64,000 nucleotides of DNA from Eledone cirrhosa (lineage: Eukaryota): positions 134,664,001 to 134,728,000 of the forward strand of contig OZ024744.1 in the NCBI GenBank assembly GCA_964016885.1. Direction: 5' to 3'. Positions within the stretch are counted from its first letter, which is position 1. Each line of letters opens with the position of its first letter. The position numbers and the translations under genes were made by a program. The notes beneath the pieces were generated by a model. That model made no database searches. It was not told where the DNA came from and saw nothing but the letters and a program-made list of their open reading frames with translations. Shown here piece after piece: positions 892 to 60,871 of the stretch.

Positions 892-1091
892 AACCCCAAC
901 TTAAGTTAACCGTAACTTAACTTAATACCAACTTCACTCAACCCCAACGTAACTCAACCCCAACTTAACTTAACCCCAACTTCACTCAACCCCAACTTAA
1001 CTTAACCCCAACTTCACTCAATCCCAACTTAAGTCAACCCCAACTTAACTTAACCCCAACTTGACTTAACCCCAACTTAACTTAAGCCCAA
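892..1091 (-). repeat. Inverted monomer block 1 (type A, 200 bp, one monomer shorter than standard)
   Basis: AACCCCAACTTAACTT units between GGGGTT|AACCCC and GCCCAAAGTCGGGG. It lacks the TTAGCCCC monomer. Confidence 0.95.
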
Positions 1092-4000
1092 AGTCGGGGT
1101 TAAGTTAAGTTGGCGTTAAGTTAAGTTAGGCTTAACTTAAGTTGGGGGTAAGTTAAGTTGGGGGTAAGTTAAGTTGGGGTTAAGTGAAGTTGCGGTTAAG
1201 TTGGGGTTAAGTTAAGTTAGGGTTAAGTTAAGTTGGCGTTCAGTTAAGTTGGGGTTAATTAAGTGGTGGTTATGTTAAGTTGGGGTTAATTTAAATTGGG
1301 GTGAAGTTAACTTTGTGGTTAAGTTAAGTTGGGGTTAAGTTAAGTTGGGGTTAAGTTGGGGTTGAGTTAAGTTGGGGTTGAGTGAAGTTGGGGTTAAGTT
1401 AAGTTGGGGTAAAGTTAAGTTGGGGTTAAGTTAAGTCGGGGTTAAGTTAAGTTGTGGTTGAGTTAAGTTGGGGTTAATTTAAGTTGGGGCTAAGTTAATT
1501 TGTGGTTAAGTTAAGTTGGGGTTAAGTTAAGTTGGGGTTAAGTTAAGTTGGGGTTAAGTTAAGTTGCAGTTAAGTTAAGTTGAGGTTAAGTTAAGTTGGG
1601 GTTAAGTTAAGTTGGGGTTAAGTTAAGTTGGGGTTCAGTTAAGTTGGGGTTAAGTTAAGTTGGGGTTAAGATGGGGTTAAATTAAGTTGGGGTTAAGTTA
1701 AGTTGGGGTTAAGTTAAGTTGGGGTTAAGTTAAGTTGGGGTTAATTTAAGTCGGGGTTAAGTTAAGTCGGGGTTAAGTTAAGTTAGGGTTCAGTTAAGTT
1801 GGGGTTAAGTTAAGTTGGGGTTGAGTTAAGTTGGGGTTGAGTTAAATTGGGGTTGAGTTAAGTTGGGGTTGAGTTAAGTTGGTGTTGAGTTAAGTTGGGG
1901 TTAAGTTAAGTTGGGGTTAAGTTAAGTTGGGGATAAGTTAAGTTGGGGATAATTTAAGTTGGGGTTAATTTAAGTTGGGTTTAAGTTAAGTTGGGGTTAA
2001 GTTAAGTTGGGGATAAGTTAAGTTGGGGTTAAGTTAAGTTGGGGTTAAGTTAAGTTGGGGTTAAGTTAAGTTGGGGCTAAGTTAAGTTGGGGCTGAGTTA
2101 AGTTGGGGTTAAGTTAAGTTGGGGTTAAGTTAAGTTGGGGTTAATTTAAGTTGGGGTTTATTTAAGTTGGGGTTAAGTTAAGTTGGGGTTCAGTTAAGTT
2201 GGGGTTAAGTTAAGTTGGGGTTAAGATGGGGTTAAATTAAGTTGGGGTTAAGTTAAGTTTGAGTTTAAGTTAAGTTGGGGTTAAGTTAAGTTGGGGTTAA
2301 GTTAAGTTGGGGTTAAGTTAAGTTGGTTAGTTAAGTTGAGTTTAAGTTAAGTTGGGGTTAATTTAAGTTGGGGTTAAGTTAAGCTGGGGTTAAGTTAAGT
2401 TGGGGTTAAGTTAAGTTGGGGTTAATTTAAGTTGGGGTTAATTTAAGTCGGGGTTAAGTTAAGTTGTGGTTGAGTTAAGTTGGGGTTAATTTAAGTTGGG
2501 GCTAAGTTAATTTGTGGTTAAGTTAAGTTGGGGTTAAGTTAAGTTGGGGTTAAGTTAAGTTGGGGTTGAGTTAAGTTGGGGTTGAGTTAATTTGGGGTTA
2601 AGTTAAGTTGGGATTAAGTTAAGTTGGGTTTAAGTTAAGTTGGGGTTAAATTAAGTTGGGGTTAAATTAAGTTGGGGTTAAGTGAAGTTGGGGGTAAGTT
2701 AAGTTGGGGGCAAGTTAAGTTGGGGTTAATTTAAGTTGGGGTTAAATTAAGTTGGGGTTACGTTAAGTTGGTGTTAAGTTAAGTTGGGGTTAATTTAAGT
2801 TGGGGTTGAGTTAAGTTGGGGTTCAGTTAAGTTGGGGATAAGTTAAGTTGGGGTTAAGTTAAGTTGGGGTTAATTAAGTTGGGGTTAAGTTAAGTTGGGG
2901 TTAATTTAAGTTGGGGCTAAGTTAAGTTGGGGCTGAGTTAAGTTGGGGCTGAGTTAAGTTGGGGTTAAGTTAAGTTGGGGTTGAGTTAAGTTGGGGTTAA
3001 GTTAAGTTGGGGTCAAGTTAAGTTGGGGTTAAGTTGGGGTTAAGTTAAGTTAGGTTTAAGTTAAGTTGGGGTTAAGTTAAGTTGGTGTTAAGTTAAGTTG
3101 GGGTTAAGTTAAGTTGGGGTTAAGTTAAGTTGGGGTTAAGTTAATTTGTGGTTTAGTTAAGTTGGGGTTAAGTTAAGTTGGGGTTAAGTTAAGTTGGGGT
3201 TCCGTTAAGTCGGGGTTAAGTTAAGTTTGGGTTAAGTTAAGTTGGAGTTAAGTTAAGTTGGGGTTAAGTTAAGTTGGGGTTAAATTAAGTTGGGGTTAAG
3301 TTAAGTTGGGGTTAAGTTAAGTTGAGGTTAAGTTAAGTTGGGGTTAAATTAAGTTGGGGTTAAGTTAAGTTGGGGTTAAGTTAAGTTGGGGTTAAGTTAA
3401 GTTGGGGATAAGTTAAGTTGGGGATAATTTAAGTTGGGGTTAAGTTAAGTTGGGGTTAAGTTAAGTTGGGGTTAAGTTAAGTTGGGGATAAGTTAAGTTG
3501 GGGTTAAGTTAAGTTGGGGTTAAGTTAAGTTGGGGTTAAGTTAAGTTGGGGCTAAGTTAAGTTGGGGCTGAGTTAAGTTGGGGTTAAGTTAAGTTGGGGT
3601 TAAGTTAAGTTGGGGTTAATTTAAGTTGGGGTTTATTTAAGTTGGGGTTAAGTTAAGTTGGGGTTCAGTTAAGTTGGGGTTAAGTTAAGTTGGGGTTAAG
3701 ATGGGGTTAAATTAAGTTGGGGTTAAGTTAAGTTGGGGTTAAGTTAAGTTGGGGTTAAGTTAAGTTGGGGTTAAGTTAAGTCGGGGTTAAGTTAAGTCGG
3801 GGTTAAGTTAAGTTAGGGTTCAGTTAAGTTGGGGTTAAGTTAAGTTGGGGTTGAGTTAAGTTGGGGTTGAGTTAAATTGGGGTTGAGTTAAGTTGGGGTT
3901 GAGTTAAGTTGGTGTTGAGTTAAGTTGGGGTTAAGTTAAGTTGGGGTTAAGTTAAGTTGCAGTTAAGTTAAGTTGAGGTTAAGTTAAGGTGCGGTTGAGT

Positions 4001-4356
4001 TAAGTTGGGGTTAAGTTAAGTTGGGGCTAAGTTAAGTTGGGGCTAAGTTAAGTTGGGGCTAAGTTAAGTTGGGGTTAAGTTACGTTGGGGTTAAGTTAAG
4101 TCGGGGTTAAGTTAAGTTGGGGTTAAGTTAAGTTGGGGTTAATTTAAGTTGGGGTTAAGTTAAGTTGGGGTTAAGTTAAGTTGGGGTTAAGTTAAGTTGG
4201 GGTTAAGTTGGGTTTAAGTTAAGTTGGGTTTAAGTTAAGTTGGGGTCAAGTTAAGTTGGGGTTAAGTTAAGTTGGTTAGTTAAGTTGAGTTTAAGTTAAG
4301 TTGGGGTTAATTTAAGTTGGGGTTAAGTTAAGTTGGGGTTAAGTTAAGTTGGGGTT

Positions 4357-4572
4357 AACCCCAACTTAAGTTAACCCTAACTTAACTTAATACCAACTTC
4401 ACTCAACCCCAACGTAACTCAACCCCAACTTAACTTAACCCCAACTTCACTCAACCCCAACTTAACTTAACCCCAACTTCACTCAATCCCAACTTAAGTC
4501 AACCCCAACTTAACTTAACCCCAACTTGACTTAACCCCAACTTAACTTAGCCCCAACTTAACTTAAGCCCAA
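4357..4572 (-). repeat. Inverted block 2 (type A, 216 bp)
   Basis: Same junctions, with type-A marks CTTAAGTTAACC, TAATACCAAC and TCAATCCC. Confidence 0.95.
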
Positions 4573-7500
4573 AGTCGGGGTTAAGTTAAGTTGGCGTTAA
4601 GTTAAGTTAGGCTTAACTTAAGTTGGGGGTAAGTTAAGTTGGGGGTAAGTTAAGTTGGGGTTAAGTTAAGTTGCGGTTAAGTTGGGGTTAAGTTAAGTTA
4701 GGGTTAAGTTAAGTTGGCGTTCAGTTAAGTTGGGGTTAATTAAGTGGTGGTTATGTTAAGTTGGGGTTAAGTTAAGTTGGGGTTAAGTTAAGTTGGGGTT
4801 GAGTTAAGTTGGGGTTGAGTTAATTTGGGGTTAAGTTAAGTTGGGATTAAGTTAAGTTGGGTTTAAGTTAAGTTGGGGTTAAATTAAGTTGGGGTTAAAT
4901 TAAGTTGGGGTTAAGTGAAGTTGGGGGTAAGTTAAGTTGGGGGCAAGTTAAGTTGGGGTTAATTTAAGTTGGGGTTAAATTAAGTTGGGGTTACGTTAAG
5001 TTGGTGTTAAGTTAAGTTGGGGTTAATTTAAGTTGGGGTTGAGTTAAGTTGGGGTTCAGTTAAGTTGGGGATAAGTTAAGTTGGGGTTAAGTTAAGTTGG
5101 GGTTAATTAAGTTGGGGTTAAGTTAAGTTGGGGTTAATTTAAGTTGGGGCTAAGTTAAGTTGGGGCTGAGTTAAGTTGGGGCTGAGTTAAGTTGGGGTTA
5201 AGTTAAGTTGGGGTTGAGTTAAGTTGGGGTTAAGTTAAGTTGGGGTCAAGTTAAGTTGGGGTTAAGTTGGGGTTAAGTTAAGTTAGGTTTAAGTTAAGTT
5301 GGGGTTAAGTTAAGTTGGGGTTAAGTTAAGTTGGGGTTAAGTTAAGTTGGGGTTAAGTTAAGTTGGGGTTAAGTTAATTTGTGGTTTAGTTAAGTTGGGG
5401 TTAGTTAAGTTGGGGTTAAGTTAAGTTGGGGTTAAGTTAAGTCGGGGTTAAGTTAAGTTTGGGTTAAGTTAAGTTGGAGTTAAGTTAAGTTGGGGTTAAG
5501 TTAAGTTGGGGTTAAATTAAGTTGGGGTTAAGTTAAGTTGGGGTTAAGTTAAGTTGAGGTTAAGTTAAGTTGGGGTTAAATTAAGTTGGGGTTAAGTTAA
5601 GTTGGGGTTAAGTTAAGTTGGGGTTAAGTTAAGTTGGGGATAAGTTAAGTTGGGGATAATTTAAGTTGGGGTTAAGTTAAGTTGGGGTTAAGTTAAGTTG
5701 GGGTTAAGTTAAGTTGGGGATAAGTTAAGTTGGCGTTAAGTTAAGTTGGGGTTAAGTTAAGTTGGGGTTAAGTTAAGTTGGGGCTAAGTTAAGTTGGGGC
5801 TGAGTTAAGTTGGGGTTAAGTTAAGTTGGGGTTAAGTTAAGTTGGGGTTAATTTAAGTTGGGGTTTATTTAAGTTGTGGTTAAGTTAAGTTGTGGTTCAG
5901 TTAAGTTGGGGTTAAGTTAAGTTGGGGTTAAGATGGGGTTAAATTAAGTTGGGGTTAAGTTAAGTTGGGGTTAAGTTAAGTTGGGGTTAAGTTAAGTTGG
6001 GGTTAAGTTAAGTCGGGGTTAAGTTAAGTTGGGGTTGAGTTAAGTTGGGGTTAAGTTAATTTGTGGTTAAGTTAAGTTGGGGTTAAGTTAAGTTGGGGTT
6101 GAGTTAAGTTGGGGCTGAGTTAATTTGGGGTTAAGTTAAGTTGGGGTTAAGTTGGGTTTAAGTTAAGTTGGGGTTAAATTAAGTTGGGGTTAAATTAAGT
6201 TGGGGTTAAGTGAAGTTGGGGGTAAGTTAAGTTGGGGGCAAGTTAAGTTGGGGTTAATTTAAGTTGGGGTTAAATTAAGTTGGGGTTACGTTAAGTTGGT
6301 GTTAAGTTAAGTTGGGGTTAATTTAAGTTGGGGTTGAGTTAAGTTGGGGTTCAGTTAAGTTGGGGATAAGTTAAGTTGGGGTTAAGTTAAGTTGGGGTTA
6401 ATTAAGTTGGGGTTAAGTTAAGTTAGGGTTAATTTAAGTTGGGGCTAAGTTAAGTTGGGGCTGAGTTAAGTTGGGGCTGAGTTAAGTTGGGGTTAAGTTA
6501 AGTTGGGGTTGAGTTAAGTTGGGGTTAAGTTAAGTTGGGGTCAAGTTAAGTTGGGGTTAAGTTGGGGTTAAGTTAAGTTAGGTTTAAGTTAAGTTGGGGT
6601 TAAGTTAAGTTGGGGTTAAGTTAAGTTGGGGTTAAGTTAAGTTGGGGTTAAGTTAAGTTGGGGTTAAGTTAATTTGTGGTTTAGTTAAGTTGGGGTTAAG
6701 TTAAGTTGGGGTTAAGTTAAGTTGGGGTTAAGTTAAGTCGGGGTTAAGTTAAGTTTGGGTTAAGTTAAGTTGGAGTTAAGTTAAGTTGGGGTTAAGTTAA
6801 GTTGGGGTTAAATTAAGTTGGGGTTAAGTTAAGTTGGGGTTAAGTTAAGTTGAGGTTAAGTTAAGTTGGGGTTAAATTAAGTTGGGGTTAATTTAAGTTG
6901 GGGTTAAGTTAAGTTGGGGTTAAGTTAAGTTGGGGATAAGTTAAGTTGGGGATAATTTAAGTTGGGGTTAAGTTAAGTTGGGGTTAAGTTAAGTTGGGGC
7001 TAAGTTAAGTTGGGGCTGAGTTAAGTTGGGGTTAAGTTAAGTTGGGGTTAAGTTAAGTTGGGGTTAATTTAAGTTGGGGTTTATTTAAGTTGGGGTTAAG
7101 TTAAGTTGGGGTTCAGTTAAGTTGGGGTTAAGTTAAGTTGGGGTTAAGATGGGGTTAAATTAAGTTGGGGTTAAGTTAAGTTGGGGTTAAGTTAAGTTGG
7201 GGTTAAGTTAAGTTGGGGTTAAGTTAAGTCGGGGTTAAGTTAAGTCGGGGTTAAGTTAAGTTAGGGTTCAGTTAAGTTGGGGTTAAGTTAAGTTGGGGTT
7301 GAGTTAAGTTGGGGTTGAGTTAAATTGGGGTTGAGTTAAGTTGGGGTTGAGTTAAGTTGGTGTTGAATTAAGTTGGGGTTAAGTTAAGTTGGGGTTAAGT
7401 TAAGTTGCAGTTAAGTTAAGTTGAGGTTAAGTTAAGGTGCGGTTAAGTTAAGTTGGGGTTAAGTTAAGTTGGGGCTAAGTTAAGTTGGGGCTAAGTTAAG

Positions 7501-7804
7501 TTGGGGCTAAGTTAAGTTGGGGTTAAGTTACGTTGGGGTTAAGTTAAGTCGGGGTTAAGTTAAGTTGGGGTTAAGTTAAGTTGGGGTTAATTTAAGTTGG
7601 GGTTAAGTTAAGTTGGGGTTAAGTTAAGTTGGGGTTAAGTTAAGTTGGGGTTAAGTTGGGTTTAAGTTAAGTTGGGTTTAAGTTAAGTTGGGGTCAAGTT
7701 AAGTTGGGGTTAAGTTAAGTTGGTTAGTTAAGTTGAGTTTAAGTTAAGTTGGGGTTAATTTAAGTTGGGGTTAAGTTAAGTTGGGGTTAAGTTAAGTTGG
7801 GGTT

Positions 7805-7972
7805 AACCCCAACTTAAGTTAACCCCAACTTAACTTAACCCCAACTTCACTCAACCCCAACTTAACTTAACCCCAACTTCACTCAATCCCAACTTAAGTC
7901 AACCCCAACTTAACTTAACCCCAACTTGACTTAACCCCAACTTAACTTAGCCCCAACTTAACTTAAGCCCAA
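7805..7972 (-). repeat. Inverted block 3 (type A, 168 bp, three monomers deleted)
   Basis: Same junctions. It lacks the TAATACC and CGTAACTC monomers. Confidence 0.95.
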
Positions 7973-9861
7973 AGTCGGGGTTAAGTTAAGTTGGCGTTAA
8001 GTTAAGTTAGGCTTAAATTAAGTTGGGGGTAAGTTAAGTTGGGGGTAAGTTAAGTTGGGGTTAAGTTAAGTTGCGGTTAAGTTGGGGTTAAGTTAAGTTA
8101 GGGTTAAGTTAAGTTGGCGTTCAGTTAAGTTGGGGTTAATTAAGTGGTGGTTATGTTAAGTTGGGGTTAAGTTAAGTTGGGGTTAAGTTAAGTTGGGGTT
8201 GAGTTAAGTTGGGGTTGAGTTAATTTGGGGTTAAGTTAAGTTGGGATTAAGTTAAGTTGGGTTTAAGTTAAGTTGGGGTTAAATTAAGTTGGGGTTAAAT
8301 TAAGTTGGGGTTAAGTGAAGTTGGGGGTAAGTTAAGTTGGGGGCAAGTTAAGTTGGGGTTAATTTAAGTTGGGGTTAAATTAAGTTGGGGTTACGTTAAG
8401 TTGGTGTTAAGTTAAGTTGGGGTTAATTTAAGTTGGGGTTGAGTTAAGTTGGGGTTCAGTTAAGTTGGGGATAAGTTAAGTTGGGGTTAAGTTAAGTTGG
8501 GGTTAATTAAGTTGGGGTTAAGTTAAGTTGGGGTTAATTTAAGTTGGGGCTAAGTTAAGTTGGGGCTGAGTTAAGTTGGGGCTGAGTTAAGTTGGGGTTA
8601 AGTTAAGTTGGGGTTGAGTTAAGTTGGGGTTAAGTTAAGTTGGGGTCAAGTTAAGTTGGGGTTAAGTTGGGGTTAAGTTAAGTTAGGTTTAAGTTAAGTT
8701 GGGGTTAAGTTAAGTTGGGGTTAAGTTAAGTTGGGGTTAAGTTAAGTTGGGGTTAAGTTAAGTTGGGGTTAAGTTAATTTGTGGTTTAGTTAAGTTGGGG
8801 TTAAGTTAAGTTGGGGTTAAGTTAAGTTGGGGTTAAGTTAAGTCGGGGTTAAGTTAAGTTTGGGTTAAGTTAAGTTGGAGTTAAGTTAAGTTGGGGTTAA
8901 GTTAAGTTGGGGTTAAATTAAGTTGGGGTTAAGTTAAGTTGGGGTTAAGTTAAGTTGAGGTTAAGTTAAGTTGGGGTTAAATTAAGTTGGGGTTAAGTTA
9001 AGTTGGGGTTAAGTTAAGTTGGGGTTAAGTTAAGTTGGGGATAAGTTAAGTTGGGGATAATTTAAGTTGGGGTTAAGTTAAGTTGGGGTTAAGTTAAGTT
9101 GGGGTTAAGTTAAGTTGGGGATAAGTTAAGTTGGGGTTAAGTTAAGTTGGGGTTAAGTTAAGTTGGGGTTAAGTTAAGTTGGGGCTAAGTTAAGTTGGGG
9201 CTGAGTTAAGTTGGGGTTAAGTTAAGTTGGGGTTAAGTTAAGTTGGGGTTAATTTAAGTTGGGGTTTATTTAAGTTGGGGTTAAGTTAAGTTGGGGTTCA
9301 GTTAAGTTGGGGTTAAGTTAAGTTGGGGTTAAGATGGGGTTAAATTAAGTTGGGGTTAAGTTAAGTTGGGGTTAAGTTAAGTTGGGGTTAAGTTAAGTTG
9401 GGGTTAAGTTAAGTCGGGGTTAAGTTAAGTCGGGGTTAAGTTAAGTTAGGGTTCAGTTAAGTTGGGGTTAAGTTAAGTTGGGGTTGAGTTAAGTTGGGGT
9501 TGAGTTAAATTGGGGTTGAGTTAAGTTGGGGTTGAGTTAAGTTGGTGTTGAGTTAAGTTGGGGTTAAGTTAAGTTGGGGTTAAGTTAAGTTGCAGTTAAG
9601 TTAAGTTGAGGTTAAGTTAAGGTGCGGTTAAGTTAAGTTGGGGTTAAGTTAAGTTGGGGCTAAGTTAAGTTGGGGCTAAGTTAAGTTGGGGTTAAGTTAA
9701 GTTGGGGTTAAGTTGGGTTTAAGTTAAGTTGGGTTTAAGTTAAGTTGGGGTCAAGTTAAGTTGGGGTTAAGTTAAGTTGGTTAGTTAAGTTGAGTTTAAG
9801 TTAAGTTGGGGTTAATTTAAGTTGGGGTTAAGTTAAGTTGGGGTTAAGTTAAGTTGGGGTT

Positions 9862-10077
9862 AACCCCAACTTAAGTTAACCCTAACTTAACTTAATACCA
9901 ACTTCACTCAACCCCAACGTAACTCAACCCCAACTTAACTTAACCCCAACTTCACTCAACCCCAACTTAACTTAACCCCAACTTCACTCAATCCCAACTT
10001 AAGTCAACCCCAACTTAACTTAACCCCAACTTGACTTAACCCCAACTTAACTTAGCCCCAACTTAACTTAAGCCCAA
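9862..10077 (-). repeat. Inverted block 4 (type A, 216 bp)
   Basis: Same junctions and marks as block 2. Confidence 0.95.
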
Positions 10078-12094: not shown

Positions 12095-12310
12095 AACCCC
12101 AACTTAAGTTAACCCTAACTTAACTTAATACCAACTTCACTCAACCCCAACGTAACTCAACCCCAACTTAACTTAACCCCAACTTCACTCAACCCCAACT
12201 TAACTTAACCCCAACTTCACTCAATCCCAACTTAAGTCAACCCCAACTTAACTTAACCCCAACTTGACTTAACCCCAACTTATCTTAGCCCCAACTTAAC
12301 TTAAGCCCAA
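12095..12310 (-). repeat. Inverted block 5 (type A, 216 bp)
   Basis: Same junctions, with a private TATCTTAG variant. Confidence 0.95.
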
Positions 12311-13522: not shown

Positions 13523-13738
13523 AACCCCAACTTAACTTAACCCCAACTTAACTTAACCCCAACTTCACTCAACCCCAACGTAACTCAACCCCAACTTAAC
13601 TTAACCCCAACTTCACTCAACCCCAACTTAACTTAACCCCAACTTCACTCAACCCCAACTTAAGTCAACCCCAACTTAACTTAACCCCAACTTGACTTAA
13701 CCCCAACTTAACTTAGCCCCAACTTAACTTAAGCCCAA
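13523..13738 (-). repeat. Inverted block 6 (type B, 216 bp)
   Basis: First two monomers are canonical and the exit is followed by GGGGTTGAG. It forms a perfect 86-bp palindrome at 13480-13565. Confidence 0.95.
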
Positions 13739-40774: not shown

Positions 40775-40862
40775 AACCCCAACTTAAGTTAACCCCAACT
40801 TAACTTAATACCAACTTCACTCAACCCCAACGTAACTCAACCCCAACTTAACTTAAGCCAAA
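40775..40862 (-). repeat. Inverted block 17 (short type A, 88 bp)
   Basis: Same marks as block 12. Confidence 0.95.
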
Positions 40863-47422: not shown

Positions 47423-47637
47423 AACCCCAACTTAACTTAACCCCAACTTAACTTAACCCCAACTTCACTCAACCCAACGTAACTCAACGCCAACTTAACT
47501 TAACCCCAACTTCACTCAACCCCAACTTAACTTAACCCCAACTTCACTCAACCCCAACTTAAGTCAACCCCAACTTAACTTAACCCCAACTTGACTTAAC
47601 CCCAACTTAACTTAGCCCCAACTTAACTTAAGCCCAA
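47423..47637 (-). repeat. Inverted block 22 (type B2, 215 bp)
   Basis: Same marks as block 16, offset +9005. Confidence 0.95.
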
Positions 47638-49779: not shown

Positions 49780-49867
49780 AACCCCAACTTAAGTTAACCC
49801 CAACTTAACTTAATACCAACTTCACTCAACCCCAACGTAACTCAACCCCAACTTAACTTAAGCCAAA
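49780..49867 (-). repeat. Inverted block 23 (short type A, 88 bp)
   Basis: Same marks as block 17, offset +9005. Confidence 0.95.
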
Positions 49868-50253
49868 AGTCGGGGTTAAGTTAAGTTGGCGTTAAGTTAA
49901 ATTAGGCTTAACTTAAGTTGGGGGTAAGTTAAGTTGGGGGTAAGTTAAGTTGGGGTTAAGTTAAGTTGCGGTTAAGTTGGGGTTAAGTTAAGTTAGGGTT
50001 AAGTTAAGTTGGCGTTGAGTTAAGTTGGGGTTAATTAAGTGGTGGTTATGTTAAGTTGGGGTTAATTTAAATTGGGGTGAAGTTAACTTTGTGGTTAAGT
50101 TAAGTTGGGGTTAAGTTAAGTTGGTTAGTTAAGTTGAGTTTAAGTTAAGTTGGGGTTAATTTAAGTTGGGGTTAAGTTAAGTTGGGGTTAAGTTAAGTTG
50201 GGGTTAAGTTAAGTTGGGGTTAAGTTAAGTTGGGGTTAAGTTAAGTTGGGGTT

Positions 50254-50469
50254 AACCCCAACTTAACTTAACCCCAACTTAACTTAACCCCAACTTCACT
50301 CAACCCCAACGTAACTCAACCCCAACTTAACTTAACCCCAACTTCACTCAACCCCAACTTAACTTAACCCCAACTTCACTCAACCCCAACTTAAGTCAAC
50401 CCCAACTTAACTTAACCCCAACTTGACTTATCCCCAACTTAACTTAGCCCCAACTTAACTTAAGCCCAA
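50254..50469 (-). repeat. Inverted block 24 (type B1, 216 bp)
   Basis: Same marks as block 18, offset +9005. Confidence 0.95.
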
Positions 50470-51761
50470 AGTCGGGGTTGAGTTAAGTTGGCGTTAAGTT
50501 AAGTTAGGCTTAACTTAAGTTGGGGGTAAGTTAAGTTGGGGGTAAGTTAAGTTGGGGTTAAGTTAAGTTGCGGTTAAGTTGGGGTTAAGTTAAGTTAGGG
50601 TTAAGTTAAGTTGGCGTTGAGTTAAGTTGGGGTTAATTAAGTGGTGGTTATGTTAAGTTGGGGTTAATTTAAATTGGGGTGAAGTTAACTTTGTGGTTAA
50701 GTTAAGTTGGGGTTAAGTTAAGTTGGGGTTAAGTTGGGGTTGAGTTAAGTTGGGGTTGAGTGAAGTTGGGGTTAAGTTAAGTTGGGGTAAAGTTAAGTTG
50801 GGGTTAAGTTAAGTCGGGGTTAAGTTAAGTTGTGGTTGAGTTAAGTTGGGGTTAATTTAAGTTGGGGCTAAGTTAATTTGTGGTTAAGTTAAGTTGGGGT
50901 TAAGTTAAGTTGGGGTTAAGTTAAGTTGGGGTTAAGTTAAGTTGCAGTTAAGTTAAGTTGAGGTTAAGTTAAGTTGGGGTTAAGTTAAGTTGGGGTTAAG
51001 TTAAGTTGGGGCTAAGTTAAGTTGGGGCTAAGTTAAGTTGCGGCTAAGTTAAGTTGGGGTTAAGTTAAGTTGGGGTTAAGTTAAGTTGTGGTTAAGTTAA
51101 GTTGGTGTTAAGTTAAGTTGGGGTTAATTTAAGTTGGGGTTGAGTTAAGTTGGGGTTCAGTTAAGTTGGGGATAAGTTAAGTTGGGGTTAAGTTAAGTTG
51201 GGGTTAATTAAGTTGGGGTTGAGTTAAGTTGGGGTTGAGTTAAATTGGGGTTGAGTTAAGTTGGGGTTGAGTTAAGTTGGTGTTGAGTTAAGTTGGGGTT
51301 AAGTTAAGTTGGGGTTAAGTTAAGTTGCAGTTAAGTTAAGTTGAGGTTAAGTTAAGGTGCGGTTAAGTTAAGTTGAGGTTAAGTTAAGTTGGGGCTAAGT
51401 TAAGTTGGGGCTAAGTTAAGTTGGGGCTAAGTTAAGTTGGGGTTAAGTTACGTTGGGGTTAAGTTAAGTCGGGGTTAAGTTAAGTTGGGGTTAAGTTAAG
51501 TTGGGGTTAATTTAAGTTGGGGTTAAGTTAAGTTGGGGTTAAGTTTAGTAGGGGTTAAGTTAAGTTGGGGTTAAGTTAAGTTGGGTTTAAGTTAAGTTGG
51601 GGTTAAGTTAAGTTGGGGTCAAGTTAAGTTGGGGTTAAGTTAAGTTGGTTAGTTAAGTTGAGTTTAAGTTAAGTTGGGGTTAATTTAAGTTGGGGTTAAG
51701 TTAAGTTGGGGTTAAGTTAAGTTGGAGTTAAGTTAAGTTGGGGTTAAGTTAAGTTGGGGTT

Positions 51762-51976
51762 AACCCCAACTTAACTTAACCCCAACTTAACTTAACCCCA
51801 ACTTCACTCAACCCAACGTAACTCAACCCCAACTTAACTTAACCCCAACTTCACTCAACCCCAACTTAACTTAACCCCAACTTCACTCAACCCCAACTTA
51901 AGTCAACCCCAACTTAACTTAACCCCAACTTGACTTAACCCCAACTTAACTTAGCCCCAACTTAACTTAAGCCCAA
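51762..51976 (-). repeat. Inverted block 25 (type B2, 215 bp)
   Basis: Same marks as block 19, offset +9005. Confidence 0.95.
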
Positions 51977-54119
51977 AGTCGGGGTTGAGTTAAGTTGGCG
52001 TTAAGTTAGGCTTAACTTAAGTTGGGGGTAAGTTAAGTTGGGGGTAAGTTAAGTTGGGGTTAAGTTAAGTTGCGGTTAAGTTGGGGTTAAGTTAAGATAG
52101 GGTTAAGTTAAGTTGGCGTTGAGTTAAGTTGGGGTTAAGTTAAATTGGGGTGAAGTTAACTTTGTGGTTAAGTTAAGTTGGGGTTAAGTTAAGTTGGGGT
52201 TAAGTTGGGGTTGAGTTAAGTTGGGGTTGAGTGAAGTTGGGGTTAAGTTAAGTTGGGGTAAAGTTAAGTTGGGGTTAAGTTAAGTCGGGGTTAAGTTAAG
52301 TTGTGGTTGAGTTAAGTTGGGGTTAATTTAAGTTGGGGCTAAGTTAATTTGTGGTTAAGTTAAGTTGGGGTTAAGTTAAGTTGGGGTTAAGTTAAGTTGG
52401 GGTTAAGTTAAGTTGCAGTTAAGTTAAGTTGAGGTTAAGTTAAGTTGGGGTTAAGTTAAGTTGGGGTTAAGTTAAGTTGGGGCTAAGTTAAGTTGGGGCT
52501 AAGTTAAGTTGGGGCTAAGTTAAGTTGGGGTTAAGTTAAGTTGGGGTTAAGTTAAGTTGGGGTTAAGTTAAGTTGGGGTTAAGTTAAGTTGGTGTTAAGT
52601 TAAGTTGGGGCTAAGTTAAGTTGGGGTTAAGTTAAGTTGGGGTTAAGTTAAGTTGGGGTTAAGTTAATTTGTGGTTAAGTTAAGTTGGGGTTAAGTTAAG
52701 TTGGGGTTAAGTTAAGTTGGGGTTAAGTTAAGTCGGGGTTAAGTTAAGTTGGGGTTAAGTTAAGTTGGGGTTAATTTAAGTTGGGGTTAAGTTAAGTTGG
52801 GGTTAAGTTAAGTTGGGGTTAAGTTAAGTTGGGGATAATTTAAGTTGGGGTTAAGTTAAGTTTGGGTTTAAGTTAAGTTGGGGTTAAGTTAAGTTGGGGT
52901 TAAGTTAAGTTGGGGTTAAGTTAATTTGTGGTTAAGTTAAGTTGGGGTTAAGTTAAGTTGGGGTTGAGTTAAGTTGGGGCTGAGTTAATTTGGGGTTAAG
53001 TTAAGTTGGAGTTAAGTTAAGTTGGGTTTAAGTTAAGTTGGGGTTAAATTAAGTTGGGGTTAAATTAAGTTGGGGTTAAGTTAAGTTGGGGGTAAGTTAA
53101 GTTGGGGGCAAGTTAAGTTGGGGTTAATTTAAGTTGGGGTTAAATTAAGTTGGGGTTACGTTAAGTTGGTGTTAAGTTAAGTTGGGGTTAATTTAAGTTG
53201 GGGCTAATTAAGTTGGGGTTAAGTTAAGTTGGGGTTAAGTTAAGTTGGGGTTAATTTAAGTTGGGGTTGAGTTAAGTTGGGGTTAAGTTAAGTTGGGGTT
53301 ATATTAAGTTGGGGTTAAGTTAAGTTGGGGTTCAGTTAAGTTGGGGTTAAGTTAAGTTGGGGTTAAATTAAGTTGAGGTTAAGTTAAGTTGGGGTTAAGT
53401 TAAGTTGGTGTTAAGTTAAGTTGGGGCTAAGTTAAGTTGGGGCTGAGTTAAGTTGGGGCTGAGTTAAGTTGGGGCTAAGTTAAGTTGGGGTTGAGCTAAG
53501 TTGGGGTTAAGTTGGGGTTAAGTTAAGTTAGGTTTAAGTTAAGTTGGGGTTAAGTTAAGTTGGGGTTAAGTTAAGTTGGGGTTAAGTTAAGTTGGGGTTA
53601 AGTTAAGTTGGGGTTAAGTTAAGTTGGGGTTGAGTTAATTTGGGGCTGAGTTAAGTTGGGGTTGAGTTAAGTTGGTGTTGAGTTAAGTTGGGGTTAAGTT
53701 AAGTTGGGGTTAAGTTAAGTTGCAGTTAAGTTAAGTTGAGGTTAAGTTAAGGTGCGGTTAAGTTAAGTTGGGGTTAAGTTAAGTTGGGGCTAAGTTAAGT
53801 TGGGGCTAAGTTAAGTTGGGGCTAAGTTAAGTTGGGGTTAAGTTACGTTGGGGTTAAGTTAAGTCGGGGTTAAGTTAAGTTGGGGTTAAGTTAAGTTGGG
53901 GTTAATTTAAGTTGGGGTTAAGTTAAGTTGGGGTTAAGTTAAGTTGGGGTTAAGTTAAGTTGGGGTTAAGTTGGGTTTAAGTTAAGTTGGGGTTAAGTTA
54001 AGTTGGGGTCAAGTTAAGTTGGGGTTAAGTTAAGTTGGTTAGTTAAGTTGAGTTTAAGTTAAGTTGGGGTTAATTTAAGTTGGGGTTAAGTTAAGTTGGG
54101 GTTAAGTTAAGTTGGGGTT

Positions 54120-54207
54120 AACCGCAACTTAAGTTAACCCCAACTTAACTTAATACCAACTTCACTCAACCCCAACGTAACTCAACCCCAACTTAACTTA
54201 AGCCAAA
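54120..54207 (-). repeat. Inverted block 26 (short type A, 88 bp, AACCGC)
   Basis: Same marks as block 20, offset +9005. Confidence 0.95.
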
Positions 54208-54716
54208 AGTCGGGGTTAAGTTAAGTTGGCGTTAAGTTAAGTTAGGCTTAACTTAAGTTGGGGGTAAGTTAAGTTGGGGGTAAGTTAAGTTGGGGTTAAG
54301 TTAAGTTGCGGTTAAGTTGGGGTTAAGTTAAGTTAGGGTTAAGTTAAGTTGGCGTTGAGTTAAGTTGGGGTTAATTAAGTGGTGGTTATGTTAAGTTGGG
54401 GTTAATTTAAATTGGGGTGAAGTTAACTTTGTGGTTAAGTTAAGTTGGGGTTAAGTTAAGTTGGGGTTAAGTTGGGGTTGAGTTAAGTTGGGGTTGAGTG
54501 AAGTTGGGGTTAAGTTAAGTTGGGGTAAAGTTAAGTTGGGGTTAAGTTAAGTTGGGGTTAAGTTAAGTTGGGGTCAAGTTAAGTTGGGGTTAAGTTAAGT
54601 TGGTTAGTTAAGTTGAGTTTAAGTTAAGTTGGGGTTAATTTAAGTTGGGGTTAAGTTAAGTTGGGGTTAAGTTAAGTTGGGGTTAAGTTAAGTTGGGGTT
54701 AAGTTAAGTTGGGGTT

Positions 54717-54932
54717 AACCCCAACTTAACTTAACCTCAACTTAACTTAACCCCAACTTCACTCAACCCCAACGTAACTCAACCCCAACTTAACTTAACC
54801 CCAACTTCACTCAACCCCAACTTAACTTAACCCCAACTTCACTCAACCCCAACTTAAGTCAACCCCAACTTAACTTAACCCCAACTTGACTTATCCCCAA
54901 CTTAACTTAGCCCCAACTTAACTTAAGCCCAA
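54717..54932 (-). repeat. Inverted block 27 (type B1, 216 bp, AACCTC)
   Basis: Same marks as block 21, offset +9005. Confidence 0.95.
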
Positions 54933-57245
54933 AGTCGGGGTTGAGTTAAGTTGGCGTTAAGTTAAGTTAGGCTTAACTTAAGTTGGGGGTAAGTTAAGTT
55001 GGGGGTAAGTTAAGTTGGGGTTAAGTTAAGTTGCGGTTAAGTTGGGGTTAAGTTAAGTTAGGGTTAAGTTAAGTTGGCGTTGAGTTAAGTTGGGGTTAAT
55101 TAAGTGGTGGTTATGTTAAGTTGGGGTTAATTTAAATTGGGGTGAAGTTAACTTTGTGGTTAAGTTAAGTTGGGGTTAAGTTAAGTTGGGGTTAAGTTGG
55201 GGTTGAGTTAAGTTGGGGTTGAGTGAAGTTGGGGTTAAGTTAAGTTGGGGTAAAGTTAAGTTGGGGTTAAGTTAAGTCGGGGTTAAGTTAAGTTGTGGTT
55301 GAGTTAAGTTGGGGTTAATTTAAGTTGGGGCTAAGTTAATTTGTGGTTAAGTTAAGTTGGGGTTAAGTTAAGTTGGGGTTAAGTTAAGTTGGGGTTAAGT
55401 TAAGTTGCAGTTAAGTTAAGTTGAGGTTAAGTTAAGTTGGGGTTAAGTTAAGTTGGGGTTAAGTTAAGTTGGGGCTAAGTTAAGTTGGGGCTAAGTTAAG
55501 TTGCGGCTAAGTTAAGTTGGGGTTAAGTTAAGTTGGGGTTAAGTTAAGTTGTGGTTAAGTTAAGTTGGTGTTAAGTTAAGTTGGGGCTAAGTTAAGTTGG
55601 GGCTGAGTTAAGTTGGGGCTGAGTTAAGTTGGGGTTAAGTTAAGTTGGGGTTGAGTTAAGTTGGGGTTAAGTTAAGTTGGGGTCAAGTTAAGTTGGGGTT
55701 AAGTTGGGGTTAATTTAAGTTAGGTTTAAGTTAAGTTGGGGTTAAGTTAAGTTGGGGTTAAGTTAAGTTGGGGTTAAGTTAAGTTGGGGTTAAGTTAAGT
55801 TGGGGTTAAGTTAATTTGTGGTTAAGTTAAGTTGGGGTTAAGTTAAGTTGGGGTTAAGTTAAGTTGGGGTTAAGTTAAGTCGGGGTTAAGTTAAGTTGGG
55901 GTTAAGTTAAGTTGGGGTTAATTTAAGTTGGGGTTAAGTTAAGTTGGGGGTAAGTTAAGTTGGGGTTAAGTTAAGTTGGGGATAATTTAAGTTGGGGTTA
56001 AGTTAAGTTTGGGTTTAAGTTAAGTTGGGGTTAAGTTAAGTTGGGGTTAAGTTAAGTTGGGGTTAAGTTAATTTGTGGTTAAGTTAATTTGGGGTTAAGT
56101 TAAGTTGGGGTTGAGTTAAGTTGGGGCTGAGTTAATTTGGGGTTAAGTTGAGTTGGGGTTAAGTTGGGTTTAAGTTAAGTTGGGGTTAAATTAAGTTGGG
56201 GTTAAATTAAGTTGGGGTTAAGTTAAGTTGGGGGTAAGTTAAGTTGGGGGCAAGTTAAGTTGGGGTTAATTTAAGTTGGGGTTAAATTAAGTTGGGGTTA
56301 CGTTAAGTTGGTGTTAAGTTAAGTTGGGGTTAATTTAAGTTGGGGTTAATTAAGTTGGGGTTAAGTTAAGTTGGGGTTAAGTTAAGTTGGGGTTAATTTA
56401 AGTTGGGGTTGAGTTAAGTTGGGGTTAAGTTAAGTTGGGGTTATATTAAGTTGGGGTTAAGTTAAGTTGGGGTTCAGTTAAGTTGGGGTTAAGTTAAGTT
56501 GGGGTTAAGTTAAGTTGAGGTTAAGTTAAGTTGGGGTTAAGTTAAGTTGGTGTTAAGTTAAGTTGGGGCTAAGTTAAGTTGGGGCTGAGTTAAGTTGGGG
56601 CTGAGTTAAGTTGGGGCTAAGTTAAGTTGGGGTTGAGTTAAGTTGGGGTTAATTTGGGGTTAAGTTAAGTTGGGGTTAAGTTAAGTTGGGGTTAAGTTAA
56701 GTTGTGGTTAAGTTAAGTTGGGGTTAAGTTAAGTTGGGGTTAAGTTAAGTTGGGGTTGAGTTAATTTGTGGTTAAGTTAAGTTGTGGTTAAGTTAAGTTG
56801 GGGTTAAGTTAAGTTGGGGTTAAGTTAAGTCGGTGTTAAGTTAAGTTGGGGTTAAGTTAAGTTGGGGTTAATTTAAGTTGGGGTTAAGTTAAGTTGGGGT
56901 TAAGTTAAGTTGGGGTTAAGTTAAGTTGGGGTTAAGTTAAGTTGGGGTTAAGTTAAGTTGGGGTTAATTTAAGTTGGGGTTAAGTTAAGTTGGGGTTAAG
57001 TTAAGTTGGGGTTAAGTTAAGTTGGGGTTAAGTTAAGTTGGGGATAATTTAAGTTGGTTAGTTAAGTTGAGTTTAAGTTAAGTTGGGGTTAATTTAAGTT
57101 GGGGTTAAGTTAAGCTGGGGTTAAGTTGGGGTTAAGTTAAGTTGGGGTTAATTTAAGTTTGGGTTAATTTAAGTTGGGGTTAAGTTAAGTTGGGGTTAAG
57201 TTAAGTTGGGGTTAAGTTAAGTTGGGGTTAAGTTAAGTTGGGGTT

Positions 57246-57461
57246 AACCCCAACTTAACTTAACCCCAACTTAACTTAACCCCAACTTCACTCAACCCCA
57301 ACGTAACTCAACCCCAACTTAACTTAACCCCAACTTCACTCAACCCCAACTTAACTTAACCCCAACTTCACTCAACCCCAACTTAAGTCAACCCCAACTT
57401 AACTTAACCCCAACTTGACTTATCCCCAACTTAACTTAGCCCCAACTTAACTTAAGCCCAA
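57246..57461 (-). repeat. Inverted block 28 (type B1, 216 bp)
   Basis: Same marks as block 10, including downstream GGCGTTAAATT. Confidence 0.95.
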
Positions 57462-60400
57462 AGTCGGGGTTGAGTTAAGTTGGCGTTAAATTAAGTTAGG
57501 CTTAACTTAAGTTGGGGGTAAGTTAAGTTGGGGGTAAGTTAAGTTGGGGTTAAGTTAAGTTGCGGTTAAGTTGGGGTTAAGTTAAGTTAGGGTTAAGTTA
57601 AGTTGGCGTTGAGTTAAGTTGGGGTTAATTAAGTGGTGGTTATGTTAAGTTGGGGTTAATTTAAATTGGGGTGAAGTTAACTTTGTGGTTAAGTTAAGTT
57701 GGGGTTAAGTTAAGTTGGGGTTAAGTTGGTGTTGAGTTAAGTTGGGGTTGAGTGAAGTTGGGGTTAAGTTAAGTTGGGGTAAAGTTAAGTTGGGGTTAAG
57801 TTAAGTCGGGGTTAAGTTAAGTTGTGGTTGAGTTAAGTTGGGGTTAATTTAAGTTGGGGCTAAGTTAATTTGTGGTTAAGTTAAGTTGGGGCTAAGTTAA
57901 GTTGGGGCTAAGTTAAGTTGGGGCTAAGTTAAGTTGGGGTTAAGTTAAGTTGGGGTTAAGTTAAGTTGGGGTTAAGTTAAGTTGGTGTTAAGTTAAGTTG
58001 GGGCTAAGTTAAGTTGGGGCTGAGTTAAGTTAGGGCTGAGTTAAGTTTGGGTTAAGTTAAGTTGGGGTTGAGTTAAGTTGGGGTTAAGTTAAGTTGGGGT
58101 CAAGTTAAGTTGGGGTTAAGTTGGGGTTAATTTAAGTTAGGTTTAAGTTAAGTTGGGGTTAAGTTAAGTTGGGGTTAAGTTAAGTTGGGGTTAAGTTAAG
58201 TTGGGGTTAAGTTAAGTTGGGGTTAAGTTAATTTGTGGTTAAGTTAAGTTGGGGTTAAGTTAAGTTGGGGTTAAGTTAAGTTGGGGTTAAGTTAAGTCGG
58301 GGTTAAGTTAAGTTGGGGTTAAGTTAAGTTGGGGTTAATTTAAGTTGGGGTTAAGTTAAGTTGGGGTTAAGTTAAGTTGGGGTTAAGTTAAGTTGGGGAT
58401 AATTTAAGTTGGGGTTAAGTTAAGTTTGGGTTTAAGTTAAGTTGGGGTTAAGTTAAGTTGGGGTTAAGTTAAGTTGGGGTTAAGTTAATTTGTGGTTAAG
58501 TTAAGTTGGGGTTAAGTTAAGTTGGGGTTGAGTTAAGTTGGGGCTGAGTTAATTTGGGGTTAAGTTAAGTTGGGGTTAAGTTGGGTTTAAGTTAAGTTGG
58601 GGTTAAATTAAGTTGGGGTTAAATTAAGTTGGGGTTAAGTTAAGTTGGGGGTAAGTTAAGTTGGGGGCAAGTTAAGTTGGGGTTAATTTAAGTTGGGGTT
58701 AAATTAAGTTGGGGTTACGTTAAGTTGGTGTTAAGTTAAGTTGGGGTTAATTTAAGTTGGGGTTAATTAAGTTGGGGTTAAGTTAAGTTGGGGTTAAGTT
58801 AAGTTGGGGTTAATTTAAGTTGGGGTTGAGTTAAGTTGGGGTTAAGTTAAGTTGGGGTTATATTAAGTTGGGGTTAAGTTAAGTTGGGGTTCAGTTAAGT
58901 TGGGGTTAAGTTAAGTTGGGGTTAAGTTAAGTTGAGGTTAAGTTAAGTTGGGGTTAAGTTAAGTTGGTGTTAAGTTAAGTTGGGGCTAAGTTAAGTTGGG
59001 GCTGAGTTAAGTTGGGGCTGAGTTAAGTTGGGGCTAAGTTAAGTTGGGGTTGAGTTAAGTTGGGGTTAATTTGGGGTTAAGTTAAGTTAGGTTTAAGTTA
59101 AGTTGGGGTTAAGTTAAGTTGGGGTTAAGTTAAGTTGGGGTTAAGTTAAGTTGGGGTTAAGTTAAGTTGGAGTTAAGTTAAGTTGGGGTTGAGTTAATTT
59201 GTGGTTAAGTTAAGTTGTGGTTAAGTTAAGTTGGGGTTAAGTTAAGTTGGGGTTAAGTTAAGTCGGTGTTAAGTTAAGTTGGGGTTAAGTTAAGTTGGGG
59301 TTAATTTAAGTTGGGGTTAAGTTAAGTTGGGGTTAAGTTAAGTCGGGGTTAAGTTAAGTTGGGGTTAAGTTAAGTTGGGGTTAATTTAAGTTGGGGTTAA
59401 GTTAAGTTGGGGTTAAGTTAAGTTGGGGTTAAGTTAAGTTGGGGTTAAGTTAAGTTGGGGATAATTTAAGTTGGGGTTAAGTTAAGTTTGAGTTTAAGTT
59501 AAGTTGGGGTTAAGTTAAGTTGGGGTTAAGTTAAGTTGGGGTTAATTTAAGTTGGTTAGTTAAGTTGAGTTTAAGTTAAGTTGGGGTTAATTTAAGTTGG
59601 GGTTAAGTTAAGCTGGGGTTAAGTTAAGTTGGGGTTAAGTTAAGTTGGGGTTAATTTAAGTTGGGGTTAATTTAAGTCGGGGTTAAGTTAAGTTGTGGTT
59701 GAGTTAAGTTTGGGTTAATTTAAGTTGGGGCTAAGTTAATTTGTGGTTAAGTTAAGTTTGGGTTAAGTTAAGTTGGGGTTAAGTTAAGTTGGGGTTGAGT
59801 TAAGTTGGGGTTGAGTTAATTTGGGGTTAAATTAAGTTGGCGTTAAGTTAAGTTGGGTTTAAGTTAAGTTGGGGTTAAATTAAGTTGGGGTTAAATTAAG
59901 TTGGGGTTAAGTTAAGTTGGGGGTAAGTTAAGTTGGGGGCAAGTTAAGTTGGGGTTAATTTAAGTTGGGGTTAAATTAAGTTGGGGTTACGTTAAGTTGG
60001 TGTTAAGTTAAGTTGGGGTTAATTTAAGTTGGGGTTGAGTTAAGTTGGGGTTCAGTTAAGTTGGGGATAAGTTAAGTTGGGGTTAAGTTAAGTTGGGGTT
60101 AATTAAGTTGGGGTTGAGTTAAGTTGGGGTTGAGTTAAATTGGGGTTGAGTTAAGTTGGGGTTGAGTTAAGTTGGTGTTGAGTTAAGTTGGGGTTAAGTT
60201 AAGTTGGGGTTAAGTTAAGTTGCAGTTAAGTTAAGTTGAGGTTAAGTTAAGGTGCGGTTAAGTTAAGTTGAGGTTAAGTTAAGTTGGGGCTAAGTTAAGT
60301 TGGGGCTAAGTTAAGTTGGGGCTAAGTTAAGTTGGGGTTAAGTTACGTTGGGGTTAAGTTAAGTCGGGGTTAAGTTAAGTTGGGGTTAAGTTAAGTTGGG

Positions 60401-60656
60401 GTTAATTTAAGTTGGGGTTAAGTTATGTTGGGTTTAAGTTTAGTAGGGGTTAAGTTAAGTTGGGGTTAAGTTAAGTTGGGTTTAAGTTAAGTTGGGGTTA
60501 AGTTAAGTTGGGGTCAAGTTAAGTTGGGGTTAAGTTAAGTTGGTTAGTTAAGTTGAGTTTAAGTTAAGTTGGGGTTAATTTAAGTTGGGGTTAAGTTAAG
60601 TTGGGGTTAAGTTAAGTTGGAGTTAAGTTAAGTTGGGGTTAAGTTAAGTTGGGGTT

Positions 60657-60871
60657 AACCCCAACTTAACTTAACCCCAACTTAACTTAACCCCAACTTC
60701 ACTCAACCCAACGTAACTCAACGCCAACTTAACTTAACCCCAACTTCACTCAACCCCAACTTAACTTAACCCCAACTTCACTCAACCCCAACTTAAGTCA
60801 ACCCCAACTTAACTTAACCCCAACTTGACTTAACCCCAACTTAACTTAGCCCCAACTTAACTTAAGCCCAA
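60657..60871 (-). repeat. Inverted block 29 (type B2, 215 bp)
   Basis: Same marks as blocks 11 and 16. The downstream flank switches to the block-28 haplotype. Confidence 0.95.

What the first reader, a model, noticed from the sequence alone, without database searches (positions are those of the whole stretch)
892..60871. Satellite punctuated by 29 clonal inverted blocks: a built-in periodic hairpin/cruciform module
Seen: every 0.5-6.4 kb the G-rich array flips to the C-rich orientation for a short block and flips back. The entry (GGGGTT|AACCCC), exit (AACTTAAGCC[C/A]AAAGTCGGGG) and internal variant order (CTTCACTC, CGTAACTC, TAAGTC, TTGACTT, TTAGCCCC) are shared, so all blocks come from one ancestral event. 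Established: long palindromes are usually unstable, and satellites usually keep one orientation over long stretches. Inference: retention and amplification at this density may reflect function. A one-strand transcript would fold into roughly 200-bp imperfect hairpins, a Dicer-type endo-siRNA source targeting both strands of the array. Alternatively the DNA dyads could extrude cruciforms that mark chromatin or start recombination. Neutral hitch-hiking inside duplicated units is the null model.
Basis: partly seen in the sequence, partly recalled or inferred. Interest (0 to 1): 0.75.

Follow-up and report, generated by a model that had tools for sequence, protein, structure and literature searches.

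The report
One old satellite inversion, copied passively
Twenty-nine short back-to-front patches in a 16-letter DNA repeat are real and share the same two junctions; they are likely copies of one old inversion carried along passively as the repeat duplicated itself, which likely folds back now and then as a copying side effect rather than working as a built-in hairpin module.

Summary
Observation confirmed: 29 inverted blocks (81-209 bp, spaced 474-6352 bp) with shared junctions in a 16-bp satellite. The window lies in a ~8.4-Mb array near one end of a chromosome-scale contig of a mollusc, probably a cephalopod; the entry junction has 773 exact genome matches. Function is not supported. The block is part of a higher-order repeat and has passenger-like copy number (29 vs median 23). 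The window holds only 15 distinct blocks, many inside recent ~9-kb duplications. Length runs 81-428 bp along the array. The family is absent from 16 of 16 samples outside one zone and 8 of 8 on another chromosome. Perfect palindrome arms are only 4-43 bp, and blocks whose palindrome was destroyed amplified too. A toy neutral model gives such density. Molluscs reportedly lack DICER2/siAGO. Real side effects: two flank tracts copied from a block at mirror position, and two larger orientation switches ending inside a block. Closest known: conserved inversion sites of Tribolium satellites. The scan reported this block family before in other windows of the same array. Ordinary; low interest.

The parts
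1..64000 (+). 16-bp satellite array, G-rich strand on +, with a ragged 1-3.5 kb higher-order pattern of unit variants; part of a ~8.4-Mb array (G000:C28 ~127.0-135.3 Mb)
   Evidence: TRF period 16, 4043 copies, 87% matches; unit tokens; array bounds
892..1084 (-). inverted block 1 (193 bp; perfect arm 13 bp)
4357..4565 (-). inverted block 2 (209 bp; arm 13)
7805..7965 (-). inverted block 3 (161 bp; arm 13)
9862..10070 (-). inverted block 4 (209 bp, identical to block 2)
12095..12303 (-). inverted block 5 (209 bp; arm 13)
13523..13731 (-). inverted block 6 (209 bp; arm 43)
19875..20083 (-). inverted block 7 (209 bp; arm 13); its exit junction was laid on sequencing runs
21347..21555 (-). inverted block 8 (209 bp; arm 20)
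24478..24686 (-). inverted block 9 (209 bp; arm 13)
25934..26142 (-). inverted block 10 (209 bp; arm 43)
29361..29568 (-). inverted block 11 (208 bp; arm 35)
31718..31798 (-). inverted block 12 (81 bp, internal deletion of 8 units)
32208..32416 (-). inverted block 13 (209 bp; arm 43)
33716..33923 (-). inverted block 14 (208 bp; arm 35)
34996..35199 (-). inverted block 15 (204 bp; arm 43)
38418..38625 (-). inverted block 16 (208 bp; same lineage as block 11, 9057 bp on)
40775..40855 (-). inverted block 17 (81 bp)
41249..41457 (-). inverted block 18 (209 bp; arm 43)
42757..42964 (-). inverted block 19 (208 bp; arm 35)
45115..45195 (-). inverted block 20 (81 bp; arm 4)
45712..45920 (-). inverted block 21 (209 bp; arm 20)
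47423..47630 (-). inverted block 22 (208 bp; copy of block 16, 9005 bp on)
49780..49860 (-). inverted block 23 (81 bp; copy of block 17)
50254..50462 (-). inverted block 24 (209 bp; copy of block 18)
51762..51969 (-). inverted block 25 (208 bp; copy of block 19)
54120..54200 (-). inverted block 26 (81 bp; same sequence as block 20, 9005 bp on)
54717..54925 (-). inverted block 27 (209 bp; same sequence as block 21, 9005 bp on)
57246..57454 (-). inverted block 28 (209 bp; arm 43)
60657..60864 (-). inverted block 29 (208 bp; arm 35)
37829..53495 (+). recent ~9-kb tandem duplication: 6662 bp identical at offset 9005, carrying four blocks per copy inside the identical stretch
20084..20300 (+). exit junction and shared downstream flank (example); about 13 variant units common to most blocks, showing that block plus flanks travel as one unit

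Best explanation
The 29 blocks are descendants of what was likely one old short inversion in a 16-bp satellite, likely made by a replication template switch at the unit's self-complementary TTAA word, and likely multiplied as a passenger by ordinary tandem duplications of the higher-order repeat it sits in. Shown: shared junctions and variant order, shared flanks, nested recent duplications, hundreds of copies confined to part of one array, lengths of 81-428 bp. Inferred: the ancestor was at least ~430 bp and copied a forward segment still recognisable in the higher-order unit; unit-wise deletions shortened it; blocks stay uniform inside because only other blocks offer same-orientation partners. 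Side effects (inferred from four events): a block occasionally templates its own flank by fold-back, and occasionally serves as the entry point of a larger orientation switch. No function of the hairpin is needed.
For: Copy number 29 against 12-40 (median 23; 5 of 28 at or above 29) for forward passenger variants chosen at 12-45 copies; flank sharing ranks 15th of 29; within-window divergence 2.0% in block vs 1.9% in the downstream flank. 15 distinct of 29, 6662 bp identical at offset 9005. Along C28, 22 of 29 samples in the 130.24-135.05 Mb zone hold blocks (mean 2.2 per 10 kb; the window, 4.5, is a local peak) and 0 of 16 outside hold this family; passenger markers have means 0.1-5.9 and one is in 29 of 29. 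0 blocks in 8 of 8 samples of the same satellite on C3. Perfect arm median 14 bp in 92 blocks. 13 blocks at 132.65-132.79 Mb in which a foreign AT-rich repeat replaced the entry side were amplified as well. Neutral toy model: 64-kb windows with 29 or more blocks arise in all 4 settings when the block survives; 9-21% of markers equal or exceed the block in dense windows (observed 18%). Source homology: 71-bp exact matches between long blocks and a forward motif. Fold-back tracts: 103 bp, 3 bp from mirror (L063) and 120 bp, 32 bp from mirror (L060/L059). Switches inside blocks at 132,857,192 and 133,355,371.
Against: The block and its direct neighbours are at the top among markers likely single per unit in this window. 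Across distant lineages blocks differ less than their flank (4.6% vs 7.4%, 600 pairs of 76), which insulation explains but weak constraint would too. The innermost 16 bp on each side of the entry carry fewer distinct variants (5 and 5 vs 7-15 in six outer bins), biased by how centres were found. Spacing CV 0.59 is below the toy model's 0.71-1.05, and the block was lost or nearly lost in many simulated runs. The toy model's parameters are mine. The origin by template switch rests on microhomology only; the ancestral state is not preserved.
Confidence: 0.8

Rival explanations
1. Self-promoting passenger: the fold-back junction stalls or breaks forks and so starts local duplications, raising its own copy number without benefit to the host.
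For: Four secondary events touch blocks: two mirror-position conversion tracts and two larger orientation switches that end inside a block. Block and neighbours top the single-copy markers in this window.
Against: No general arm homogenisation: 50 shared mirror variants vs null 51.2 +/- 7.9. Block density is 0 in 7 of 29 zone samples where linked markers persist. Flank sharing is mid-rank. Arms are short.
Confidence: 0.1
2. Functional DNA dyad: blocks extrude cruciforms or hairpins that mark (peri)centromeric or heterochromatic chromatin and are kept by selection.
For: Entry arms can fold in silico (-46 to -59 kcal/mol for 120 nt, DNA parameters). Tribolium authors propose such a role for conserved inversion sites, while calling it untested (PMC13081366). 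Slight variant deficit at the centre.
Against: Same satellite without this family over ~3.3 Mb of the C28 array and on C3; arms broken independently in several lineages; palindrome-less blocks amplified. Whether this array is a centromere is unknown.
Confidence: 0.05
3. Hairpin-RNA source: a read-through transcript folds and yields Dicer-type siRNAs against both strands of the array.
For: Predicted duplexes with 1-6 helices of 21 bp or more in each of 20 block contexts; block-free controls have none above 12 bp.
Against: Host is a mollusc; DICER2 and siAGO were not found in Mollusca (PMC11114477), though its authors allow that DICER1 might make some endo-siRNA. One Dicer dimerisation-domain exon in the genome (1 of 7 candidates; lower bound). 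Folding follows from any inversion and shows no selection. In a cephalopod ADAR editing would be the likelier fate of such RNA (recalled, untested).
Confidence: 0.03
4. Sequencing or assembly artefact (fold-back reads, repeat expansion).
For: Assembly gaps lie in the array (132,793,543; near 124.69 Mb), and near-identical 9-kb copies could be over-expanded.
Against: Lineage-structured variants along megabases; junction contig in run X1 with 0 differences at depth 1464.5; no N in the window.
Confidence: 0.02

Closest known systems
Conserved inversion sites / macro-dyad symmetries of Tribolium madens TmSat1 and TmSat2 (PMC13081366; abstract, passages and Discussion part 1 of 2 read)
   Same: A satellite array changes orientation at thousands of near-identical junctions of one or few origins (INV_1a 2044 copies, INV_1b 3486); authors raise hairpin/cruciform function but state it is untested and may reflect spread mechanisms.
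   Different: There the arms are kilobases long, roughly symmetric, on all chromosomes and shared in pattern by congeners. Here the inverted part is a short one-sided cassette (81-428 bp, 8% of the window) in a 16-bp satellite, seen only in part of one chromosome's array.
Short-range template switching between inverted repeats (PMC5453318, PMC8604942, PMC8794818; search listing and start of abstract only)
   Same: Creates short inverted copies at microhomology and later homogenises inverted-repeat arms; matches the TTAA junction and the two mirror-position tracts.
   Different: Described for single events in mostly unique sequence; here the product was multiplied hundreds-fold inside a satellite.
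Higher-order repeat evolution of satellites by unequal exchange and segmental duplication (recalled, general knowledge)
   Same: Nested duplications and deletions of 0.1-9 kb carry variants as passengers; regional lineages.
   Different: One passenger is an inversion, so it adds opposite-orientation homology to the array.
Unstable long palindromes such as human PATRRs (PMC7999016; passages read)
   Same: Spacer-less centre at the entry junction.
   Different: PATRRs are near-perfect over about 200-600 bp; here perfect arms are 4-43 bp and the rest is broken by mismatches and register shifts.

Membership tests
Satellite with amplified conserved inversion sites (Tribolium type) | Orientation changes inside one satellite array | tested here: met
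   29 blocks in the window; family along C28
Satellite with amplified conserved inversion sites (Tribolium type) | Junctions near-identical across hundreds of copies | tested here: met
   29 of 29 in window; 773 exact entry and 322 exact exit matches
Tribolium macro-dyad symmetry in the strict sense | Kilobase-scale, roughly equal direct and inverted subarrays | tested here: not met
   Blocks 81-428 bp, 8.4% of window
Tribolium macro-dyad symmetry in the strict sense | Present in the arrays of all chromosomes | tested here: not met
   0 of 8 C3 samples hold blocks; first listed entry junctions all on C28; the satellite was seen on C2, C3 and C28 only, other contigs not surveyed
Hairpin-RNA / endo-siRNA locus | Transcript able to form a long duplex | tested here: met
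   In silico only: helices of 21-48 bp
Hairpin-RNA / endo-siRNA locus | Transcription and 21-22 nt siRNA duplexes | not testable with these tools
   No RNA run could be laid
Hairpin-RNA / endo-siRNA locus | DICER2 and siRNA-class Argonaute in the host | tested here: inconclusive
   One Dicer-domain exon found (lower bound); Argonautes not searched; reported absent in Mollusca (PMC11114477)
Unstable long palindrome (PATRR type) | Near-perfect arms of hundreds of bp | tested here: not met
   Perfect arm 4-43 bp in window, median 14 in 92 blocks
Template-switch product | Microhomology at the switch and an identifiable nearby template | tested here: inconclusive
   TTAA at the entry is read from the sequence; forward homolog of the block interior exists but no exact ancestral template; block-specific words have 0 forward matches in 539 kb sampled
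Centromeric satellite | CENP-A binding | not testable with these tools
   No chromatin data

The most novel reading that the evidence does not exclude
The cassette is a self-promoting or host-used fold-back element: it pairs with its flanks in the germline, starts duplications and larger inversions of the array, and so has driven its own spread to hundreds of copies, possibly also giving dyad or double-stranded-RNA marks that shape this chromosome end.
Probability: 0.12. Interest if true: 0.6.

Novelty: new member of a known kind. Interest (0 to 1): 0.2.

Why it matters
As it stands it is a clean natural tracer of satellite turnover: one dated-by-descent marker that records duplications, deletions, conversions and later inversions over megabases, and a caution that conserved, abundant inversion junctions need no function. 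If the bolder reading held, it would show an inversion biasing its own amplification, which would bear on the open question of whether dyads in satellites are selected.

Tried and rejected
No RNA holder listed for window:19700-21700; this says nothing on expression. RAD-seq runs of three other samples (X9-X11) hold the satellite (583-768 reads laid per run and call) but junction-spanning reads could not be separated from plain satellite reads, so presence of the blocks in other individuals is open. Run X4 (organism B) holds the satellite; 0 contigs laid on the 50-base junction, which is no proof of absence. General arm homogenisation: rejected, 50 vs 51.2 +/- 7.9. Fold-back duplication of the present upstream flank as origin: rejected, ungapped identity to the mirror flank 0.41-0.86 and block-specific variants absent from it. 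Palindrome erosion or protection at the centre: inconclusive. A long exact pattern meant to reveal arrays on other contigs gave 6 matches, all on C28, and was uninformative. Rfam on three loci outside the window: 0 matches. Papers: six rotations of the unit, 0 papers; octopus + satellite DNA + Z chromosome, 2 unrelated; cephalopod + satellite + centromer + tandem repeat + telomer, 9 papers, none on this repeat by title or abstract start; strand-switch search gave mainly human centromere papers, not read. No supplements were read; those of PMC13081366 may hold more on short inverted subarrays. Earlier-finding look-ups 'near' and by words returned nothing.
Full report
Setting. The window is one 16-bp satellite (period 16, 4043 copies, 87% matches), G-rich on the + strand. 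It lies at G000:C28:134,664,001-134,728,000, on a 136.5-Mb contig of a 3.0-Gb genome with a TTAGGG telomere on C10. The mitochondrial COX1 frame is open under table 5, there are 39 molluscan haemocyanin domain matches, and the best single-unit matches among solved structures are 4yd9_C (659 bits) and 1js8_A (650) ahead of 8tnv_A (460). That these are squid, octopus and gastropod proteins is recalled, so 'cephalopod' is an inference; 'mollusc' is firm. Sampling puts the array between about 127.0 and 135.3 Mb.

Observation. Segmentation gives exactly 29 inverted blocks from 892 to 60864. Entry and exit junctions are in 29 of 29, internal variants in 23-29 of 29. Spacing is 474-6352 bp, CV 0.59. 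Genome-wide there are 773 forward and 690 reverse exact entry matches, with 0 for the reversed control; the first 100 listed are all on C28, and since listings run by contig number none on C1-C27 is inferred, later contigs unseen. A contig of run X1 crosses the exit junction unchanged at depth 1464.5.

Anatomy. Written as unit variants, every inter-block stretch starts with the same run of about 13 variant units and nearly every one ends with the same short run: the block is one piece of a ragged higher-order unit. The 29 blocks are 15 distinct sequences, and 6662 bp are identical at offset 9005, with further exact repeats at 9041, 9057 and 3405. So many of the 29 come from a few recent multi-kilobase duplications. 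Along the array the family runs 81-428 bp, in regional lineages. The long forms contain a motif also found in forward orientation (71-bp exact matches), which suggests an ancestor of at least ~430 bp copied from a forward segment, later shortened unit by unit. The entry joins the two orientations at the self-complementary TTAA word of the unit (sequence); origin by template switch is inferred from that.

Is the density special? In the window, 28 forward variants (two or more changes or a length change; only those with 12-45 copies were taken; some are linked to the block) have median 23 copies, 5 of 28 reach 29 or more; the block ranks 15th of 29 in flank sharing; divergence is 2.0% in blocks, 1.9% in the 200 bp downstream, 3.9% in the 110 bp upstream. 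In the zone 130.24-135.05 Mb, 22 of 29 samples hold blocks, mean 2.2 per 10 kb against 4.5 in this window; passenger markers have similar means and one is in 29 of 29 samples; 0 of 16 samples outside the zone hold this family, one holds an unrelated 231-bp inversion. The same satellite on C3 has no block in 8 of 8 samples. Thirteen blocks whose entry side was replaced by a foreign AT-rich repeat were amplified as well. A toy model of neutral duplication and deletion (4 settings, 12 runs each, my parameters) yields 64-kb windows with 29 or more blocks in every setting when the block survives, though it was lost or rare in many runs and spacing CV was 0.71-1.05. Against my reading: the block and its neighbours top the probably single-copy markers here; across distant lineages blocks differ less than flanks (4.6% vs 7.4%), and the innermost 16 bp each side of the entry show fewer variants (5 and 5 vs 7-15). 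Insulation from forward units and ascertainment explain these, but weak constraint is not excluded.

Hairpin and cruciform. A one-strand RNA would fold: 20 distinct block contexts give helices up to 21-48 bp, controls 12 at most. This follows from any inversion in a satellite. Perfect arms at the entry are 4-43 bp in the window, median 14 in 92 blocks, broken differently in different lineages, far below the near-perfect 200-600 bp of unstable PATRRs (PMC7999016, passages). So survival needs no special explanation. For the siRNA idea, DICER2 and siAGO were not found in Mollusca (PMC11114477, abstract and passages; the authors allow a DICER1 route), and one Dicer-domain exon was found here (lower bound).

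Side effects. Shared variants at mirror positions are no commoner than chance (50 vs 51.2 +/- 7.9; 83 distinct blocks). But among 13 long exact block-to-forward matches in 96 blocks, two forward sites lie at the mirror of their own block: 103 bp, 3 bp off (L063; a sister copy in L065 lacks it) and 120 bp, 32 bp off (L060, with a copy in L059; sister copies lack it). These are best read as rare fold-back copying from block to flank. Following leads from earlier notes, I checked two larger switches: a 2049-bp forward insert at 132,857,192 starts at a block's exit junction, and the reversed domain ends at 133,355,371 inside a block, with no gap nearby. Its other edge is an assembly gap at 132,793,543, so its size (~560 kb) depends on scaffolding. 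Blocks thus likely supply opposite-orientation homology for later inversions. Four events are too few to show that they drive their own spread.

Comparison. The nearest described case is Tribolium madens, whose satellites change orientation at thousands of conserved sites, with function proposed but untested (PMC13081366; abstract, passages, Discussion part 1). This case works alike in junction amplification but fails the strict macro-dyad features (arm size, all chromosomes). Template-switch papers were seen as listings only. Searches for this repeat found nothing. Earlier AI notes on other windows of this array reached the same passive reading; they are not independent support.

Verdict. Real, clonal, ordinary: one old inversion hitch-hiking in a higher-order repeat (0.8), with occasional fold-back by-products. 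New member of a known kind; interest 0.2.

Noticed in passing
G000:C3 184.765-185.31 Mb (L093-L097, L136-L138): A second array of the same 16-bp satellite (at least 0.54 Mb) in the middle of a 379-Mb contig, starting directly after a degenerate interstitial telomere tract; possibly an old chromosome fusion site.
   Followed up: partly
G000:C2 209.2-209.75 Mb (L089-L092): A composite ~520-bp tandem repeat made of about 15 units of the 16-mer plus ~270 bp of other sequence, mid-contig; L089 has no Rfam match.
   Followed up: partly
G000:C28 124.56-124.69 Mb (L082-L088): A small reversed piece of the array with blocks of the 132-Mb lineages, ending at an assembly gap and bordered by a related satellite mixed with telomere repeats; the related satellite also borders the main array at 135.35 Mb (L133). 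May be a translocated or mis-scaffolded piece.
   Followed up: partly
L003:2061-2291 (G000:C28 129.602 Mb): An independent 231-bp inversion with other junctions; it holds a 46-bp exact mirror copy of its upstream flank.
   Followed up: partly
G000:C28 132.65-132.79 Mb (L067, L102-L115): A foreign AT-rich repeat of 0.7-8.4 kb, no ORF of 120 aa in the longest copy, replaces the entry side of 13 blocks and was amplified with them.
   Followed up: partly
G000:C26 21.93-22.02 Mb (L080, L081) and C1 173.7-173.9 Mb: Haemocyanin genes: an inverted pair with matching domain scores on C26 and three same-strand copies on C1.
   Followed up: no
G000:C2 345.137 Mb (L078, L079), 115.2, 163.8 and 206.2 Mb: Nuclear copies of mitochondrial COX1, one of them split in two close pieces with high scores.
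   Followed up: no
G000:C28 90-126.9 Mb and 135.5-136.5 Mb (L037-L051, L015-L021): Many different unrelated tandem repeats fill the sampled stretches on both sides of the array; no telomere repeat at the contig's ends.
   Followed up: no
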